From NCBI GenBank assembly GCA_905178155.1, contig CAJINV010000027.1, positions 348,840 through 354,374 of the forward strand: a stretch of 5,535 bases of DNA. The letters are read 5' to 3'. The DNA comes from Amoebophrya sp. A120. Its lineage: Eukaryota > Protista > Dinoflagellata. The translations under genes and the position numbers were made by a program. The notes below the pieces were generated by a model. It was not told where the DNA came from, made no database searches, and saw only the letters and a list, made by a program, of their open reading frames with translations. Positions 1 through 5,535 of this stretch are shown piece after piece (position 1 is the first letter of the stretch; each line of letters starts with the position of its first letter).

Positions 1-10
1 AGGGACACTA

Positions 11-37
11 AGTATTGAAATGAAGGAGCTCAATACT
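11..37. repeat. Spaced palindrome copy 1 (TATTGA-N11-TCAATA)
   Basis: AGTATTGA-aatgaaggagc-TCAATACT; 8-bp perfect arms, 11-nt spacer. Confidence 0.85.
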
Positions 38-114
38 AAAAGGAACGCAGAGCCGTGAGAGTCTTAGTTTCCTGGATCAGTCGAGTAGATCAATACAATT
101 CACGGAATTCGTGC

Positions 115-147
115 CGACGTATTGGCTTAACGTAAATCAATACGTCG
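115..147. repeat. Spaced palindrome copy 2 (TATTGG-N11-TCAATA)
   Basis: CGACGTATTG(G)-cttaacgtaaa-(T)CAATACGTCG; 10-bp perfect arms plus a G-T position, 11-nt spacer. Confidence 0.85.
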
Positions 148-190
148 CTGATCTGCATCATTTCTACGCTTAAGCGAACAAATTTACTCA

Positions 191-283
191 ACAGTGTCCT
201 TCTGGGTATTATAAAGTATTTCCTGAACCTGTTTTGCACCACTTTGCGCTATTGAGAATTTGTGTTCTTTCCGCTGTATAGCA
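191..283 (+). repeat. 5' LTR, portion shared with the 3' LTR (likely R-U5 with or without the core promoter)
   Basis: 93/93 identical to 5229-5321 by direct comparison. Ends in ...TATAGCA just before the PBS-like site. Confidence 0.93.
210..215 (+). promoter_or_regulatory. TATAAA within the LTR (TATA box or polyadenylation signal); second copy at 5248-5253
   Basis: Motif seen in both LTR copies, followed by a T/GT-rich tract (TTTGTGTTCTTT). Function cannot be resolved from sequence alone. Confidence 0.4.
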
Positions 284-287
284 TAGA

Positions 288-296
288 GTTATGAGC
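288..296 (+). other. Primer-binding site complementary to the anticodon loop of initiator tRNA-Met (half-tRNA priming type)
   Basis: GTTATGAGC, 4 nt after the LTR-terminal CA. Its reverse complement GCTCATAAC contains the CAT anticodon loop. Resembles the Ty5/copia-type GGTTATG(A/G)GCCC PBS. Confidence 0.65.
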
Positions 297-367
297 ATCT
301 CGCATCTTCATAGTTTTATTTAGATTTCAAACCATTCAGATAAGTAAGTCCATCAACATCTCCCCGA

Positions 368-398
368 TAAGTATTGAAATAAGTTAAGTCAATACTTA
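368..398. repeat. Spaced palindrome copy 3, in the 5' leader
   Basis: TAAGTATTGA-aataagttaag-TCAATACTTA; 10-bp perfect arms, 11-nt spacer, ending 19 nt before the gag ATG. Confidence 0.88.
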
Positions 399-417
399 GA
401 AAACAAACCCCAACAAA

Positions 418-1623
418 ATGGTCCTCGCGAAAATGTGGAAAAAGGGACGCACCGCGACGGTGGACGGCGAGACCGTCATGTTCTGCGGATGGCGCCACAG
501 TTTCGACCCGACGCTGCCGAAAACCTGCAAAGACCGAATCTTCGTCACCCGTGCGGATGGCCTTCCGGATGGTGAGGAAGATTTTACGGTCCAGGGACGG
601 AAGTATTTGGTCCGGGTTTTGAACTGCTACGCGCGCAAACTGCTACCGGAGACCAACAGCTCCCTCGTGTCGGACGCTGTTATGACGGAGATCTGCTTGA
701 CCATCGGCGAGCTGGCCGATTCTCTGGACTCGGACTTGTACACCCCGCCTGCGGACCCCACCCCTGTTGTCGTTCCGACCACGACCACCACCACAGCAGT
801 AGTTGAACAAAAAGAGCGCCCGCAGTTACCGAAATGGGACGGCAAGGAGGAGCTTGATTTGTTTCTGCAAATGGTGGACCTGTGGCGCGGCGAGCTCAAG
901 ACCCTGGGAGCCCCTGAGTTGGTGTCCGACTTCTTATCCGCTTTACCCCAGAAGGACCGAGCCGCGATTATTCGCAAAGCCGACGTCAGCACCCTGGACG
1001 TGCAAGGTGCTATCGAAATTTTATGCGAAAAAGTGAAAGGCGATGTCCGTTTCCAGATGTTCGGCGTCCTTGCGGAGTGGTTCCTGTACCGCCGCAAGAC
1101 TGGCACCAGCGTCCACGACCACCTTTCCCGCGTAAACGAGCACCGCCGTAAGGTCAAGGCGGCACTGGGCTGCACTGACGACCCGTTTCCCGATCTGTTC
1201 TGGGGATGGTATCTGCTGTTCACCGCCGCGGTGGATGAGACGGAGCTGCAGAACCTCAAGACTATGATCAACGGCAATTTCGGTTTTGCGGTTGTGAAGA
1301 ACGCCTTGATCGCGTATTTCCACAAGAGTAACCTGGCCAGCGACACCAAGGAAAACAAGGAGAACACGCTGGAGGCCCAGGTCAAGGACATCGTGAACAA
1401 GATGGGCATTCGCAAGAACAACAACAACACGAAGGACAAGAACGGAGGAGATGAAACTCACAAGCCCCGCTGTGAGTACAAGCACAACTGTAGAAAGTTG
1501 CTTTCCGGAACCTGCCCGAATTACCACCCCTTCTGGGAACTTGCCAAGGCCAAGAAGAACAAGACGAAAGTGAACAAGGCTGAGGAGGAGAAGCAGGACG
1601 GTCGTTCCTCGGAACAGCCGTGA
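418..1623 (+). CDS. gag: Gag protein (401 aa): N-terminal CAP-Gly-like region, P/T-rich linker, capsid-like region, basic C-terminus with a CCCH finger
   Basis: First long ORF after the PBS. ATG in a strong context (AAAATGG). Capsid-start-like LPKWDG...FLQMVDLW. Lys/Asn-rich nucleocapsid-like tail with C-x5-C-x7-C-x3-H. Lies directly upstream of pol. Confidence 0.88.
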   Translation: MVLAKMWKKGRTATVDGETVMFCGWRHSFDPTLPKTCKDRIFVTRADGLPDGEEDFTVQGRKYLVRVLNCYARKLLPETNSSLVSDAVMTEICLTIGELADSLDSDLYTPPADPTPVVVPTTTTTTAVVEQKERPQLPKWDGKEELDLFLQMVDLWRGELKTLGAPELVSDFLSALPQKDRAAIIRKADVSTLDVQGAIEILCEKVKGDVRFQMFGVLAEWFLYRRKTGTSVHDHLSRVNEHRRKVKAALGCTDDPFPDLFWGWYLLFTAAVDETELQNLKTMINGNFGFAVVKNALIAYFHKSNLASDTKENKENTLEAQVKDIVNKMGIRKNNNNTKDKNGGDETHKPRCEYKHNCRKLLSGTCPNYHPFWELAKAKKNKTKVNKAEEEKQDGRSSEQP

Positions 1624-1645
1624 CTAAATTCTTCTTACTTAGTCG
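1621..1645 (+). promoter_or_regulatory. Putative gag-pol stop-codon readthrough signal (UGA-CUA) with a local hairpin
   Basis: CCG TGA CTA AAT; the frame stays open from 1624 to 4767. GACTAA (1622-1627) can pair with TTAGTC (1639-1644). Confidence 0.75.
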
Positions 1646-4600
1646 AGACAGATGCTGATCACGTGCACAGCGTAGACATCCCGGGTGTATGTAACTCTAC
1701 CGAGTTCATTCCCGCGGACTACGTGCAGACGTCAGATCGTGGGGGCGTAACTTCAACCCTGTGGTCTTCGGACGGCGTGATCCGCTTCCTGTTGGATGGA
1801 GGAGCAACAAATCACTGCATTCGATTCAAGGAGCTGATCTTGAAAAACACCAACCAAAAGCGAGCCCTCGGCGGAATCTGTGGCGGTTGTACTGTGGACG
1901 TGGTCCATCTGAAGTCCATGCAGTTCCCCGGCACCTCCATGGGACTCGTCGCGACTGGCGCCATCTACTCGCCCCGGCTAACGCAAAACATCCTTGCCGA
2001 ATCAAGACTACTTGATGCTGGTTGGCGCTTTGCTGAGGACAAGAGCTCGATGTGGCACCTGACACGACCAAGCTCGAAAGTCTCCGTCGTACGCAGTGGA
2101 AACCTGTTTTGGGTCGACGTCAACGTACCCGACCTGAATTGCACCCCTGACGAAACCGATTCTACTACTAGCCTGGCCAGTGAAGACATGCTTAAGGTTT
2201 TCGCTGTTTCCCTGGACGAGCACATACGCTGCGGACGCATGCCGCTTCTGCCGCCTGGTGAGTGTGATGCTTGCGATCGCACCAAGCGACAGCGCAAGGG
2301 CATCCAGCGTTCCCGTGCTGAAGACCGTTCCCAGCTGGTGGGAGTCGTCGCGACTGACCTCTGCGGCCCGCTCCAGCCCAGTCAGGATGGGAATAAGTAT
2401 CTTCAGCTGTTTAAGCAGCTCGATACGCTCGACCTGGTTCCTACGTTTTCCAAGACGAAGCATTCTGCCGCCACCCGGACCAACCTACGGAGCTACCTCG
2501 CGGTGCGGACGAAGCCGAAAATCGTCAAAACGGACAATGGAACCGAGTTCAAGGGCGATTTCGAGAAAGAGGTAATTGATCAAGGCATACAAATACGAAA
2601 ATCGCCGGAATACTTGCCAGCCTTCAACGGAGGAGTTGAAGTGGAGAGCAGAGTGGTGATTCAGGGCGCTGCGTGCATTTTGTACGATTCTGGCGCACCT
2701 TTAGAATTTTGGCCACACGCTATCAAGTACATCTGCTACACCCTGAACCGCATGCCGCGACCGGCTTTGAAGAAGTCGCCGCACGAGGCCCGCACAGGTG
2801 TAGAGCCGAACAACGACCATCTCCGAGAATTTTGGTCGCTGGGTTATTATTTGGTGCTGAACCCGGAGCACAAGAAAACCAAATTGGAACCCCGACGCCG
2901 ACCTTGTCGCCTCCTGTCGTACTGTTTCGACAAGAGGGCCTACAATGTCTATGACGTGGACGACGAGCGCGTTGGCCCGCCGGTTTACGACGTTGTTTGG
3001 GCAAAGAACCAGTCCCCCCACCGGTCCCCCTCTGGTAAGCTTCTGGATGTCGACGGGCTGACCCCGGAAGTCGATCCTGATCAGATCGAGAGGACCATGT
3101 ACATGGGCGAGCCGGATTGGGTTTTGACCAATGAAGAAATGGCGAAATGGGACGAGTTGGTAGATCCTGACTTCATCCGAAAGTTTGAATTCGCCAACAA
3201 TGCAGTGATCGGACTAAATGAGGCTATGGCAGACACTGCAAACAAAGAAAACTGGACGAGCGGCATTACAGTCGAGTGCCGCGCGGTGGATATGTCCTGG
3301 GTATGGGAAAAGCTACCTGCCGGGCATCGAGCTCTACCGTGCCGAATCATCCTGACCCGGAAAGACGACGGAAGATTCAAGGCAAGAATAGTAGTCATCG
3401 GCTTCCTCCAGTACGTAAGTGCTGGCGATGGAACCACTTACGCACCTACACTCATGGCGGATAGCTTTCGGGCTGCTGTGGCACTGTGTGGGGCGATGGG
3501 ATGGGAGCCGGAAGGCGCTGACGTTTCGACGGCTTTCCTGCTTGCTGACATCCCGGAAGACGAAGTTATTTACGTCCACCCCCCGAAGGGATGGATTCCG
3601 AAAAACGAAGAAGACCGCAAGAAATGCGCAGACGGCTACGTTTGGCGTTTGAAGCGGGCGCTTTACGGCTTGCGGAAAAGTCCGAAGTACTGGTCTGACC
3701 ACTTCCACAAAGTCGCGACCAAGGAGTTCAAATTTATCCGATGCCCTTCCGACCGCTGCATCTACATCCATATCGAATTTGGTCACCTGACAATCATCCT
3801 GGTGTACGTCGACGACCTTGTTTTCATGGGTGTACGGGCGAAAGAGGTCAAGAAGATGGTCTTGGGTCGATTTCCCTGCCGCGATTTGGGACGACTTTCC
3901 GAGTTTCTAGGCTGCCAGGTGCTGTACCCGGGCGATAAGACTATTGTCCTGTCCCAGCAGCGCTACGTCGAGAAATTCATCAAGAAGGTTAACGTAAGCG
4001 AAAAAGGAGTGCCTACGCCGATCGAGAAAAAGCTGACGTCAATGGGTGAACCTGCACCGGTGGACAACAACACGAGGCAGATTTTGGGAACAATCGGATA
4101 CCTTCCGATCATGACCCGCCCCGACCTGTCTTTCGCGCAAGGACATTCCGCGAGGTTCGTCGCCAATCCCACCCTGGGCCACATTTCTGCGCTGAAGCAC
4201 TACGTGCGGTATGTAGCTGGAACGAAGCGCGCACGCCTGACCTACGGACCCCCAAGCAACTCCGTCAAGCTCTCGGCTAGCAAAGACAGTGATTGGAAGG
4301 GCTGCCCGGAGTCTGGTCGCTCTACTGGTGGGCATTTGATCAACATCAACGGCACTGCAGTTTGCTGGACCTCGAAGTTGATGCTGGATTCGATCAAAAT
4401 GTCTTCTACCGAGGCGGAGTATGTGCAGCTCTCGCTCTGCTCGCGAGATGTTATTTTCTTCAAGAATCTGCTAGACTGGCTGGCACAGCACGGCAAGCGG
4501 TTCGCGCTGGACCCGAATCCGGCTGAGATCGAGGAAGACAACAAAGGCTCGTTTGACTTTGTACAAGGAGCAAACACTGGAAATGGCAAACGACTCCGAC

Positions 4601-4767
4601 ACTTAGATCACCACCAGCACCATGCTCGCGATTGCGTGGAGCAGGGCATTATCAAGGTCGTGAAAGTTGAAACGGACAAAAATAGCAGCGACATCATGAC
4701 GAAACCTGCGAAATCCCGTCCCCAACTCGACCGGTTGCTCGCGAAGCACAACTTCGTGACTGAGTAA
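1624..4767 (+). CDS. pol: Pol polyprotein (protease, integrase, reverse transcriptase, RNase H), probably made as a Gag-Pol fusion 418-4767; the ORF-track GTG start at 1663 is unlikely to be the true start
   Basis: Protease FLLDGGATNH. Integrase TDLCGP / TDNGTEF / NGGVE and KLEPR..C..Y. RT FKARIV, DVSTAFL, ALYGLRKSP, YVDD. RNase H DSDW, SSTEAEY, EDNKG, RHLD, SDIMTK. No stops or frameshifts. Confidence 0.96.
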   Translation, partial: LNSSYLVETDADHVHSVDIPGVCNSTEFIPADYVQTSDRGGVTSTLWSSDGVIRFLLDGGATNHCIRFKELILKNTNQKRALGGICGGCTVDVVHLKSMQFPGTSMGLVATGAIYSPRLTQNILAESRLLDAGWRFAEDKSSMWHLTRPSSKVSVVRSGNLFWVDVNVPDLNCTPDETDSTTSLASEDMLKVFAVSLDEHIRCGRMPLLPPGECDACDRTKRQRKGIQRSRAEDRSQLVGVVATDLCGPLQPSQDGNKYLQLFKQLDTLDLVPTFSKTKHSAATRTNLRSYLAVRTKPKIVKTDNGTEFKGDFEKEVIDQGIQIRKSPEYLPAFNGGVEVESRVVIQGAACILYDSGAPLEFWPHAIKYICYTLNRMPRPALKKSPHEARTGVEPNNDHLREFWSLGYYLVLNPEHKKTKLEPRRRPCRLLSYCFDKRAYNVYDVDDERVGPPVYDVVWAKNQSPHRSPSGKLLDVDGLTPEVDPDQIERTMYMGEPDWVLTNEEMAKWDELVDPDFIRKFEFANNAVIGLNEAMADTANKENWTSGITVECRAVDMSWVWEKLPAGHRALPCRIILTRKDDGRFKARIVVIGFLQYVSAGDGTTYAPTLMADSFRAAVALCGAMGWEPEGADVSTAFLLADIPEDEVIYVHPPKGWIPKNEEDRKKCADGYVWRLKRALYGLRKSPKYWSDHFHKVATKEFKFIRCPSDRCIYIHIEFGHLTIILVYVDDLVFMGVRAKEVKKMVLGRFPCRDLGRLSEFLGCQVLYPGDKTIVLSQQRYVEKFIKKVNVSEKGVPTPIEKKLTSMGEPAPVDNNTRQILGTIGYLPIMTRPDLSFAQGHSARFVANPTLGHISALKHYVRYVAGTKRARLTYGPPSNSVKLSASKDSDWKGCPESGRSTGGHLININGTAVCWTSKLMLDSIKMSSTEAEYVQLSLCSRDVIFFKNLLDWLAQHGKRFALDPNPAEIEEDNKGSFDFVQGANTGNGKRLRHLDHHQHHARDCVEQGIIKVVKVETDKNSSDIMTKPAKSRPQLDRLLAKHNFVTE
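1777..2127 (+). other. Aspartic protease domain (approximate limits)
   Basis: LLDGGATNH with catalytic Asp at 1795-1797; copia-like downstream YSPRLTQNILAESRLLDAG. Confidence 0.8.
2221..3000 (+). other. Integrase domain (approximate limits)
   Basis: Zn-finger remnant at 2221-2274. Catalytic D at 2356, D at 2533 and E at 2638. C-terminal KLEPR...KRAY, equivalent to the copia GKGY region. Confidence 0.9.
3298..4010 (+). other. Reverse transcriptase domain, copia type (approximate limits)
   Basis: KARIVVIGFLQ, TYAPT, DVSTAFL, LYGLRKSPKYW, YVDD at 3805-3816, DLG..FLG. Confidence 0.95.
4270..4750 (+). other. RNase H domain, Ty1/copia type (approximate limits)
   Basis: DSDW (Asp at 4285), SSTEAEY, EEDNKG, SDIMTKP; all four acidic catalytic positions appear present. 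Confidence 0.93.
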
Positions 4768-4830
4768 GCTGCTGGCGGAGGAATACTTGTGAAGCCTTGA
4801 GGACTATGGTGAACAATTTAGGCGCAAAGC

Positions 4831-4853
4831 TATTGAATTAAGTGAAATCAATA
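4831..4853. repeat. Spaced palindrome copy 4, in the 3' untranslated region
   Basis: TATTGA-attaagtgaaa-TCAATA; 11-nt spacer. Confidence 0.8.
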
Positions 4854-5023
4854 CTCTTTATGCTATTGCTTCAGTAGACCCTTCTTTGGCTGATTTATTC
4901 TTTTCTAGGAGCTGTTTATGGACCATTTACAAATTGAAGTTTTCAACTTTCCATCCTGTTTTTCTCATCGAGTTTTTCCACTTCCCTGCGTTTAGGCTTT
5001 TCAAGTGGCTCGCACTCGATTAT

Positions 5024-5032
5024 GGGGGCGTA
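5024..5032 (+). other. Polypurine tract (plus-strand primer)
   Basis: GGGGGCGTA immediately before TGCT at 5033; resembles the GGGGGCG-type PPT of copia elements. Confidence 0.65.
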
Positions 5033-5321
5033 TGCTCTGCAAGTTGTAATCGACCACGAGATCACACAAATTCTACTTCAGGTTCAAGAATGAAAATAGA
5101 TGAAATTGAAGAAAGTTCTGATTAAGTATTGAATTGAATGAATTCAATATTGGGAGCATCTTGCCACTTGACAAATGGTAAAAGAGAATCAGAATCAGAA
5201 TGAACCGCAAATGTTGAAACCACGCTTCACAGTGTCCTTCTGGGTATTATAAAGTATTTCCTGAACCTGTTTTGCACCACTTTGCGCTATTGAGAATTTG
5301 TGTTCTTTCCGCTGTATAGCA
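5033..5321 (+). repeat. 3' LTR (289 bp, TGCT...AGCA); only 5229-5321 is matched at the 5' end
   Basis: Follows the PPT and has 4-bp inverted termini TGCT/AGCA. Last 93 bp identical to 191-283. Abrupt switch to GC-rich sequence after 5321. The end is firm; the start is inferred. Confidence 0.72.
5127..5149. repeat. Spaced palindrome copy 5, in the U3-like part of the 3' LTR
   Basis: TATTGA-attgaatgaat-TCAATA; 5123-5151 matches 9-37 at 24/29 positions. Confidence 0.85.
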
Positions 5322-5324
5322 CGA

Positions 5325-5440
5325 CCTCTTGCGCCTACGCCAATCCGCAAGAGGAAGAACCAAAGAGCAGCGCCGCGCTTGTGCGGGCCAGGCGGGGAGA
5401 TTGCTGCATCCCTCTCGCGCCTACCCCTGTCCGCGAGAGG
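5325..5440. repeat. Two related hairpin units in the right flank (5325-5354 and 5411-5440)
   Basis: CCTCTTGCG-cctacgccaatc-CGCAAGAGG and CCTCTCGCG-cctacccctgtc-CGCGAGAGG; 9-bp perfect stems, 12-nt loops, 86 bp apart. Confidence 0.8.
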
Positions 5441-5535
5441 AAAAAAACCGCCAGCCCCGCACCAAAAGCGGCCGCGGGAAGCGGCTGCGATCTGCCTCGC
5501 GCGCGGCTGCTCGCCATTGGGAAAAGCTGCCAACC

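What the first reader, a model, noticed from the sequence alone, without database searches (positions are those of the whole stretch)
11..5149. Five copies of a fixed-spacing palindrome TATTGR-N11-TCAATA, one or two in every non-coding compartment of the element
Seen: cores at 13-35, 120-142, 372-394, 4831-4853 and 5127-5149, always with exactly 11 nt between half-sites; I saw none in the 4.3 kb of coding sequence. The spacers differ but share T at position 3, purine at 4, A at 5 and A at 9, so all copies point the same way. The outer arms differ between copies yet stay complementary (AG/CT, CGACG/CGTCG, TAAG/CTTA), which suggests selection on pairing or symmetry rather than simple duplication. 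Inference: a dimeric protein-binding site, an RNA stem-loop recognised by Gag (packaging or dimerisation), or a host chromatin/transcription signal that the element has adopted. It is the only clear sequence shared by the two otherwise unrelated U3-like regions. I do not recognise it as a described LTR-element motif.
Basis: partly seen in the sequence, partly recalled or inferred. Interest (0 to 1): 0.8.

Follow-up and report, generated by a model that had tools for sequence, protein, structure and literature searches.

The report
Symmetric DNA site shared by retrotransposons
A strictly spaced, mirror-symmetric DNA motif occurs five times in the non-coding parts of a copia-type jumping gene and of a second repeat that likely is a different jumping gene inserted into it, and it likely serves as a docking site for a host DNA-binding protein, as palindromic boxes are thought to do in other retrotransposons.

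Summary
Five exact copies of TATTGR-N11-TCAATA lie at the stated coordinates and none in 4.3 kb of coding sequence; no shuffle reaches five, and only N11 scores. The window is a Ty1/copia element (family A). Four corrections: (1) window 1-190 is probably not A's U3 but the start of a second LTR family (B) lying in reverse inside A's 5' LTR, so copies 1-2 belong to B and 3-5 to A; (2) the motif is a near-symmetric site of about 29 bp, with an invariant T...A pair inside the spacer; (3) the shared polarity is not significant; (4) outer-arm covariation rests on copy 2 alone. Both clade relatives with DNA (42% pol identity) lack the motif. Best reading (0.55): a double-stranded DNA site for a two-fold symmetric host protein, working like Sirevirus RM boxes or the copia leader dyad. 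An RNA hairpin remains possible (0.22). No host genome was held and no binding was tested. It is a new sequence of a known kind of cis-element. Interest 0.4.

The parts
13..35 (.). dyad copy 1, in the inferred family-B LTR, 156-178 nt from its start
   Evidence: family assignment inferred
120..142 (.). dyad copy 2, in the inferred family-B LTR, 49-71 nt from its start; unique 5-bp perfect outer arms (115-147)
   Evidence: a further contig of run X1 carries 120-155 between other flanks
372..394 (.). dyad copy 3, 5' UTR of element A, ending 23 nt before the gag ATG; closest to the symmetric consensus
4831..4853 (.). dyad copy 4, 3' UTR of A, 63 nt after the pol stop; weakest hairpin (z -0.06)
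5127..5149 (.). dyad copy 5, U3 of A's 3' LTR, about 100 nt upstream of a TATA-like TATAAAG at 5248; spacer position 5134 is polymorphic
85..98 (-). lone half-site in B without a partner at N11
1..190 (-). inferred start (U3) of a second LTR family B, inserted in reverse into A's 5' LTR; TG at 190-189
   Evidence: a 681-nt contig (depth 94) runs on past 191 with a G6 tract on the minus strand and an inverted repeat to 149-170; junction contig 162-220 has depth 26, like A's interior (25); X3 shows a third continuation at 191
191..283 (+). remaining right part of A's 5' LTR, identical to 5229-5321, ends in CA
   Evidence: D1, 93 nt, 100%
284..297 (+). primer-binding-site region, same 14 letters behind the LTR end in L040 and L041
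   Evidence: half-tRNA-Met priming is recalled, not tested
418..1623 (+). gag, 401 aa, no Pfam hit; C-x5-C-x7-C-x3-H finger near the C terminus; ends in TGA in frame with pol
1624..4767 (+). pol in copia order (protease, integrase, RT, RNase H); RVT_2 E 8.7e-37, SH3_retrovirus E 1.3e-10
   Evidence: protease, integrase and RNase H read from motifs and alignment, not from Pfam hits on this protein
5008..5060 (+). polypurine tract (about 5021-5032) enclosed by an inverted repeat across the 3' LTR start
   Evidence: sequence, printed; same arrangement in L040; type described in PMC2829016 section 8
5033..5321 (+). 3' LTR of A, 289 bp, TG...CA
   Evidence: contig break at 5033; depth 42 against 25 inside
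5322..5535 (.). high-copy GC-rich tandem repeat of about 203 bp flanking the element, with its own 9-bp-arm, N12 dyad twice

Best explanation
The five palindromes are likely double-stranded DNA binding sites for one two-fold symmetric host protein (dimer or tetramer) that two different LTR retrotransposon families of this organism likely use to control their transcription or chromatin. Shown: five exact copies with fixed N11 spacing, all non-coding; a half-site of about (AAG)TATTGAnTTnA read twice around one central base; absence in two distant relatives. Inferred: that copies 1-2 lie in a second family inserted in reverse; that a protein binds; that it is host-encoded; that the U3 copies act as upstream activating or silencing sites. 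Speculative: that the 5' UTR and 3' UTR copies, which bracket gag-pol, extend or loop this domain.
For: Across 10 half-sites TATTG is invariant, A follows in 9 of 10, inner T in 10 of 10, and inner T (7 of 10) and A (8 of 10) extend the symmetry to the base next to the centre, where a hairpin cannot pair. The six core pairs show no two-sided change; a fixed letter sequence with fixed spacing is what a symmetric DNA-binding protein reads (established knowledge), whereas RNA stems usually covary. Only N11 scores. Contigs of runs X1 and X4 differ from the window inside the spacer (5134), the only listed letter difference in a 225-nt LTR contig; it weakens the predicted hairpin from -9.1 to -5.2 kcal/mol and leaves the half-sites intact. 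U3 position in both families, copy 5 about 100 nt before a TATA-like box. If B is reversed, copy 1 has the opposite polarity to A's copies on the sense strand (identity score 61 as read, 52 when copy 1 is flipped against the rest), which a DNA site tolerates and a directional RNA signal does not. L040 and L041 share the primer site, the gag-TGA-CT-pol junction and Gag homology but score below zero for the motif, so it is not a clade-wide replication signal. Precedent: PMC2829016 section 9; PMC8933008 passage.
Against: No binding, expression or host-genome data. All five cores are predicted to pair in local RNA context (mean pairing probability 0.44-1.0 on +, 0.54-0.99 on -), and four of five fold better than shuffles. 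The per-pair shuffle gives 2 of 500 for percent paired and 1 of 500 for covariation, though the structure was drawn from these same sequences. G-U pairs on + outnumber A-C by 5 to 2 in the arms. Family B is inferred from 30-letter loose ends of contigs from one sample that may be the window's source; no B open reading frame was seen. Only 2 clade relatives could be read, at 42% identity, and L041 lacks its 3' end. An element-encoded rather than host protein is not excluded.
Confidence: 0.55

Rival explanations
1. RNA stem-loops (about 8-11 bp stem, 2x2 internal loop, U-A pair, 5-nt purine-rich loop) in the 5' and 3' UTRs of the genomic RNA, bound by Gag or a host RNA-binding protein for packaging, dimerisation or translation control.
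For: Hairpins predicted in local context for all five; z -3.3 to -5.0 for four of five; per-pair covariation 1 of 500; 5 G-U against 2 A-C on +; Gag relatives give weak CCCH zinc-finger matches (E 0.017 and 0.027, one member each); copies 3 and 5 could also pair with each other (81% over 27 nt).
Against: Stem letters invariant and loop variable, the reverse of usual RNA signals; copy 4 no better than shuffles (z -0.06); whole-arm permutation weak and lost without copy 2; loops not self-complementary; opposite sense polarity in B; motif absent in relatives with homologous Gag; 0 Rfam matches at E<=1.
Confidence: 0.22
2. Cruciform or single-stranded DNA hairpins acting during reverse transcription, integration or in satellite chromatin; structure matters and the sequence is only partly read.
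For: Both strands fold about equally; the flanking tandem repeat has its own fixed-spacer dyad with a two-sided change between its two sub-units; both families carry PPT-spanning inverted repeats.
Against: An 11-nt loop with a 6-11 bp AT-rich stem extrudes poorly (established knowledge); structure alone does not explain invariant letters or exact spacing; absent in relatives.
Confidence: 0.1
3. A neutral product of duplication and template-switch palindrome correction, passed between families by recombination.
For: Copy 2's private perfect arms fit quasi-palindrome correction; a contig of X1 carries 5033-5089 between foreign flanks and another carries 120-155 alone, so LTR pieces do move; earlier AI notes describe palindrome cassettes passed between fungal families (e1-7825453, e1-9835344; unchecked).
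Against: No similarity between copies beyond about 29 nt; cores and spacing are kept while spacer and flanks have diverged; there is one copy per compartment rather than a tandem array.
Confidence: 0.08
4. Site-specific recombination sites (lox/dif-like) that would swap LTR or UTR modules.
For: Size of about 29-33 bp with inverted arms resembles such sites (recalled).
Against: Central bases differ between all five copies, whereas tyrosine-recombinase partners need matching cores (established knowledge); no recombinase in the window; the B/A junction at 190/191 and the LTR ends are not at the motif; no joints at the motif.
Confidence: 0.05

Closest known systems
Sirevirus repeated-motif (RM) boxes (PMC2829016; passages and sections 8 and 9 read; PMC4728375 abstract read)
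   Same: Dyad-symmetric motifs in a Ty1/copia LTR upstream of the TATA box and also in internal non-coding regions; near-identical between divergent elements; proposed cis-regulatory role that was not proven there; able to form hairpins.
   Different: RM boxes are 10-20 bp, mostly with a CGG-CCG core, 8-32 copies clustered in CpG islands, in plants. Here the site is about 29 bp, AT-rich, with an 11-nt fixed spacer, 3 dispersed copies in A and 2 in B.
Drosophila copia untranslated-leader enhancer, 28-bp dyad with Xrp1-consensus sites (PMC8933008 passage read)
   Same: A dyad of similar length in the 5' leader of a copia element, tied to a host transcription factor and to expression level.
   Different: Different sequence context and host; copies here also lie in U3 and the 3' UTR; no binding factor is known here.
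Vibrio LuxR operator TTATTGATA-N4-TATCAATAA (PMC8034623 passages read)
   Same: The same TATTGA / TCAATA half-site letters in a palindrome read by a protein dimer.
   Different: Bacterial TetR-type regulator; 8 nt between the hexamers rather than 11; unrelated context. A coincidence of sequence that shows only that such half-sites can be protein-read.
PPT-spanning inverted repeat of Pseudoviridae (PMC2829016 section 8)
   Same: Present as a separate feature in A, in L040 and in inferred B; used here to orient B.
   Different: It is not the motif: one copy per element, at the PPT/LTR junction, with family-specific sequence.

Membership tests
Ty1/copia LTR retrotransposon (the host element A) | RVT_2-type reverse transcriptase, integrase upstream of RT | tested here: met
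   RVT_2 E 8.7e-37 at 559-801, SH3_retrovirus at 392-450; integrase motifs align with relatives that carry PF00665
Ty1/copia LTR retrotransposon (the host element A) | TG...CA LTRs with primer site and polypurine tract | tested here: met
   3' LTR 5033-5321 with PPT; 93-nt identical right part of the 5' LTR followed by a conserved primer-site region
Ty1/copia LTR retrotransposon (the host element A) | target-site duplication | not testable with these tools
   the left end of the 5' LTR is outside the window
Sirevirus RM boxes | dyad symmetry | tested here: met
Sirevirus RM boxes | CGG-CCG core | tested here: not met
   core is TATTGA/TCAATA; RM definition
Sirevirus RM boxes | at least 8 clustered copies per element in CpG islands | tested here: not met
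   3 dispersed copies in A in AT-rich sequence
Sirevirus RM boxes | located in the LTR upstream of the TATA box and in internal non-coding regions | tested here: met
   copy 5 about 100 nt before TATAAAG; copies 3 and 4 in the UTRs
host transcription-factor site in an LTR or leader (copia leader type) | sequence-specific binding by a host protein | not testable with these tools
   no binding assay
host transcription-factor site in an LTR or leader (copia leader type) | occurs outside the element family, in host promoters or other families | tested here: inconclusive
   present in inferred family B; no host genome to scan
structured RNA packaging or dimerisation signal | covarying stem with conserved loop | tested here: not met
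   core pairs show no two-sided change; outer-arm signal depends on copy 2
structured RNA packaging or dimerisation signal | match to a described RNA family | tested here: not met
   0 Rfam matches at E<=1
structured RNA packaging or dimerisation signal | same polarity on the sense strand of each element | tested here: inconclusive
   holds for copies 3-5; fails for copy 1 if B is reversed, which is inferred
LuxR/HapR operator | 9-4-9 palindrome in a bacterial promoter | tested here: not met
   spacer is 3 nt longer and the context is eukaryotic
tyrosine-recombinase site | identical asymmetric core between partner sites and a cognate recombinase | tested here: not met
   five different centres; no recombinase ORF

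The most novel reading that the evidence does not exclude
The site is read by an undescribed architectural DNA-binding protein of a poorly sampled eukaryote, binding as two inverted pairs of ATTGA-like pentamers. Unrelated LTR families have adopted it in both U3 and both UTRs to loop or insulate themselves inside satellite heterochromatin, making it a host-wide boundary or centromere-associated code rather than an ordinary promoter box.
Probability: 0.12. Interest if true: 0.72.

Novelty: new member of a known kind. Interest (0 to 1): 0.4.

Why it matters
If true, it hands over a sharply defined bait of about 29 bp for a DNA-binding protein in an uncharacterised eukaryotic lineage, and shows two LTR families carrying the same host signal while the rest of their LTRs share nothing. 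Palindromic cis-boxes in copia LTRs and leaders are a known kind, so the surprise is moderate: the new points are the sequence, its strict geometry and the placement on both sides of the coding region.

Tried and rejected
No whole genome is held, so no host-wide scan. No RNA holder was listed; RNA runs X5 and X6 laid 0 reads, which is no test. Viral collection: 39 and 110 stretches matched two degenerate patterns; of 151 motif matches in these 149 loci, 135 lie inside stop-free frames of 100 aa or more, 2 of 149 loci hold two exact copies, and none encodes a relative of gag or pol. Read as chance. A symmetrised 29-nt pattern and a satellite pattern found 0. No pol relative in viral or prokaryotic contigs (0 of 15 and 0 of 63 candidates). 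Prokaryotic genomes: 12 hits, 6 of them from Phascolarctobacterium within about 50 bases of contig ends, one tested and lying beside an ISL3 transposase; read as an unrelated terminal hairpin. Metagenome scan: 5 of 170 candidates confirmed, 2 in the clade and 3 distant; 0 of 5 carry the N11 motif with up to 1 mismatch, and no dyad recurs in the non-coding parts of L040 or L041 beyond local repeats. Gag searches: 0 of 4033 candidates with the single protein, 1 of 7991 with the alignment (a contig of L040's length). The Atlas did not answer. Literature: two searches for the motif's letters (30 of 169 and 25 of 26 listings seen) showed no eukaryotic or retrotransposon motif of this form; the ChlorV preprint was read in passages and is unrelated. 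The library lacks most subscription papers, and no supplements were read; the Sirevirus paper's additional files could bear on the comparison. Earlier-finding look-ups by sequence and place were empty. Rejected ideas: an assembly chimera at 190/191 (a junction contig exists at interior depth, though in a possible source sample); a role of the motif in gag stop read-through (relatives have the same junction without it); SECIS-like or tRNA-like RNA.
Full report
Observation. The pattern TATTGR-N11-YCAATA matches five times, all exactly, at 13-35, 120-142, 372-394, 4831-4853 and 5127-5149; 0 of 200 shuffles reach five. All copies are outside gag (418-1623) and pol (1624-4767). Because these regions are AT-rich and the motif was picked after the fact, I asked how often any 5-mer dyad at any spacing from 0 to 30 recurs in shuffles of the 878 non-coding bases: four copies once in 1000, five never (observed value 5, the figure printed being an artefact of N padding). 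Only N11 gives exact matches. A matrix built from the ten half-sites scores the five sites at 30-38 bits, the next at 3.1, and at most 7.4 at neighbouring spacings (trained on the same copies, so the gap is inflated).

The element. Pol carries RVT_2 and a retroviral SH3-like domain in copia order. Its four closest relatives are 43-50% identical over RT-RNase H and lie on contigs of 5.1-5.4 kb, with no names. The 3' LTR is 5033-5321 (TG...CA), preceded by a purine tract; contigs of run X1 break at 5033 and show depth 42 over this U3 against 25 inside. Positions 191-283 repeat 5229-5321 exactly and are followed by a primer-site region shared with L040 and L041. Beyond 5321 lies a tandem repeat of about 203 bp at depth in the thousands. 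These depths are contig means and not copy numbers, and X1, X3 and X4 are one sample that may be the window's source.

The left 190 bases are probably another element. In X1, window 1-191 lies on a 681-nt contig (depth 94) that runs on past 191 with other letters. A 59-nt contig spans the window's own junction (162-220) at depth 26, and X3 shows a third continuation at 191. Read on the minus strand, the main continuation is a run of six G and four further letters directly before TG at 190-189, and the bases before the G run are, by eye, an inverted repeat of 149-170, starting 20 nt inside. That is the arrangement described for copia 3' LTR junctions: left arm bordering the PPT, right arm about 18 bp inside the LTR (PMC2829016 section 8). 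A and L040 have the same arrangement at their own PPTs. I infer that 1-190 is the start of an LTR of a second family, B, inserted in reverse into A's 5' LTR. This rests on 30-letter loose ends; no B coding sequence was seen. It explains the two 'unrelated U3-like regions' and assigns copies 1-2 to B and copies 3-5 to A (5' UTR, 3' UTR, U3).

Anatomy of the motif. Taking the ten half-sites together: A 7/10, A 7/10, G 8/10, TATTG 10/10, A 9/10, variable, T 7/10, T 10/10, variable, A 8/10, then one central base. So the unit is a near-symmetric site of about 29 bp, which can be read as two ATTGA-like pentamers per half, the inner one degenerate. That one of the five inner pairs is the same pair in all copies has a chance of about 8e-5 under the local composition. 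Spacers resemble each other more than random ones with T3/A9 fixed (p 0.0012), but the as-read orientation only ties for first among 16 sets; most of the resemblance is symmetric. Copy 1 does match A's copies better as read (61 against 52), which on B's inferred sense strand is the opposite polarity.

DNA site or hairpin. For pairing: all five cores are predicted to pair in context on either strand, four beat shuffles, per-pair shuffling gives 2 of 500 and 1 of 500, and G-U outnumbers A-C 5 to 2 on +. Against: that structure was drawn from these sequences. Exchanging whole arms among copies reaches the observed pairing in 6-12 of 120 permutations at 4-5 nt, 17-36 of 120 at 8 nt, and 6-12 of 24 without copy 2. 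The six core pairs show no two-sided change, and copy 4 folds no better than shuffles. A natural variant at 5134 in X1 and X4 sits in the spacer and costs 3.9 kcal/mol of predicted hairpin; this is a single observation. Invariant letters, exact spacing and symmetry up to the centre fit a symmetric protein on duplex DNA better than an RNA signal.

Relatives. The one metagenome scan confirmed 5 of 170 candidates. L040 and L041 belong to the clade (42% pol identity, homologous Gag, same primer site and gag-TGA-CT-pol junction). Neither has the motif. L040 is circularly permuted and shows its whole 590-nt non-coding region; L041 lacks its 3' end. So the motif is not a clade-wide replication signal but is tied to this host or to these two families. 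A closer sister copia (4811-nt contig, depth 21) exists in X1, but only coding pieces were listed (10 rows not shown). Matches in viral and prokaryotic collections behave like chance or unrelated hairpins.

Mechanism. Most likely (0.55) a host dimer or tetramer binds the duplex site. In U3 it would act on the LTR promoter (copy 5 lies about 100 nt before a TATA-like box), and the UTR copies would extend the bound domain across gag-pol. Shown: the sequence facts above. Inferred: family B, protein binding, host origin, regulatory effect. Rivals: RNA stem-loop 0.22, cruciform or single-stranded DNA hairpin 0.10, neutral copying 0.08, recombination site 0.05.

Comparison and novelty. It works like the palindromic RM boxes of Sireviruses (PMC2829016 section 9; PMC4728375 abstract) and the 28-bp dyad of the Drosophila copia leader (PMC8933008 passage). 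It is not an RM box: no CGG-CCG core, no cluster of eight or more. The LuxR operator shares the hexamers at a shorter spacing (PMC8034623 passages) and is unrelated. Two full-text searches for the letters listed no such motif in a retrotransposon; the library is incomplete and no supplements were read. Two earlier AI notes describe palindrome cassettes shared between fungal LTR families; they are unchecked leads, not support. Verdict: a real, sharply defined, apparently undescribed sequence of a known kind of cis-element. Interest 0.4, rising to about 0.7 if it proves to be a host-wide architectural signal (probability about 0.12).

Noticed in passing
window 1621-1626; L040 3088-3093; L041 1738-1743: gag ends in TGA followed by CT and pol continues in the same frame in all three clade members, pointing to conserved stop-codon bypass; a gag-UGA-pol copia is known in Candida Tca2 (PMC2194720 abstract).
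   Followed up: partly
window about 1465-1530 (Gag C terminus); L040, L041: Gag of this clade carries a CCCH-like finger (C-x5-C-x5/7-C-x3/5-H) instead of the usual CCHC knuckle; weak zf-CCCH matches in single members. Window Gag has no Pfam match.
   Followed up: partly
window 5322-5535: High-copy tandem repeat of about 203 bp (depth in the thousands, joints 5524 to 5322) with two sub-units, each holding a 9-bp-arm dyad with a 12-nt spacer and a two-sided letter change between them. Could be a centromeric or other structured satellite.
   Followed up: partly
window 190/191: Nested insertion: a second LTR family in reverse inside A's 5' LTR, with at least two sequence variants at 171-180.
   Followed up: partly
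window 5033-5089: A contig of X1 at higher depth carries only the first 57 nt of A's LTR between foreign flanks, and a contig of X3 has the same left flank but runs on to 5133; unexplained.
   Followed up: no
window 120-155: A short contig of X1 holds copy 2 and its right arm between GC-rich flanks that resemble the satellite by eye.
   Followed up: no
window 2227-3750 (run X1, record 4): A sister copia family (4811-nt contig, depth 21, pieces about 76-90% identical) in the same sample; its UTRs were not shown.
   Followed up: no
L040 whole contig: Circularly permuted contig with one LTR between pol and gag and an overlap at its ends: a collapsed repeat, tandem copies or a one-LTR circle.
   Followed up: no
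L156, L157, L161, L162, L165, L166: A look-alike palindrome forms part of a longer hairpin near contig ends in Phascolarctobacterium, beside an ISL3 transposase in L166; unrelated to this finding.
   Followed up: partly
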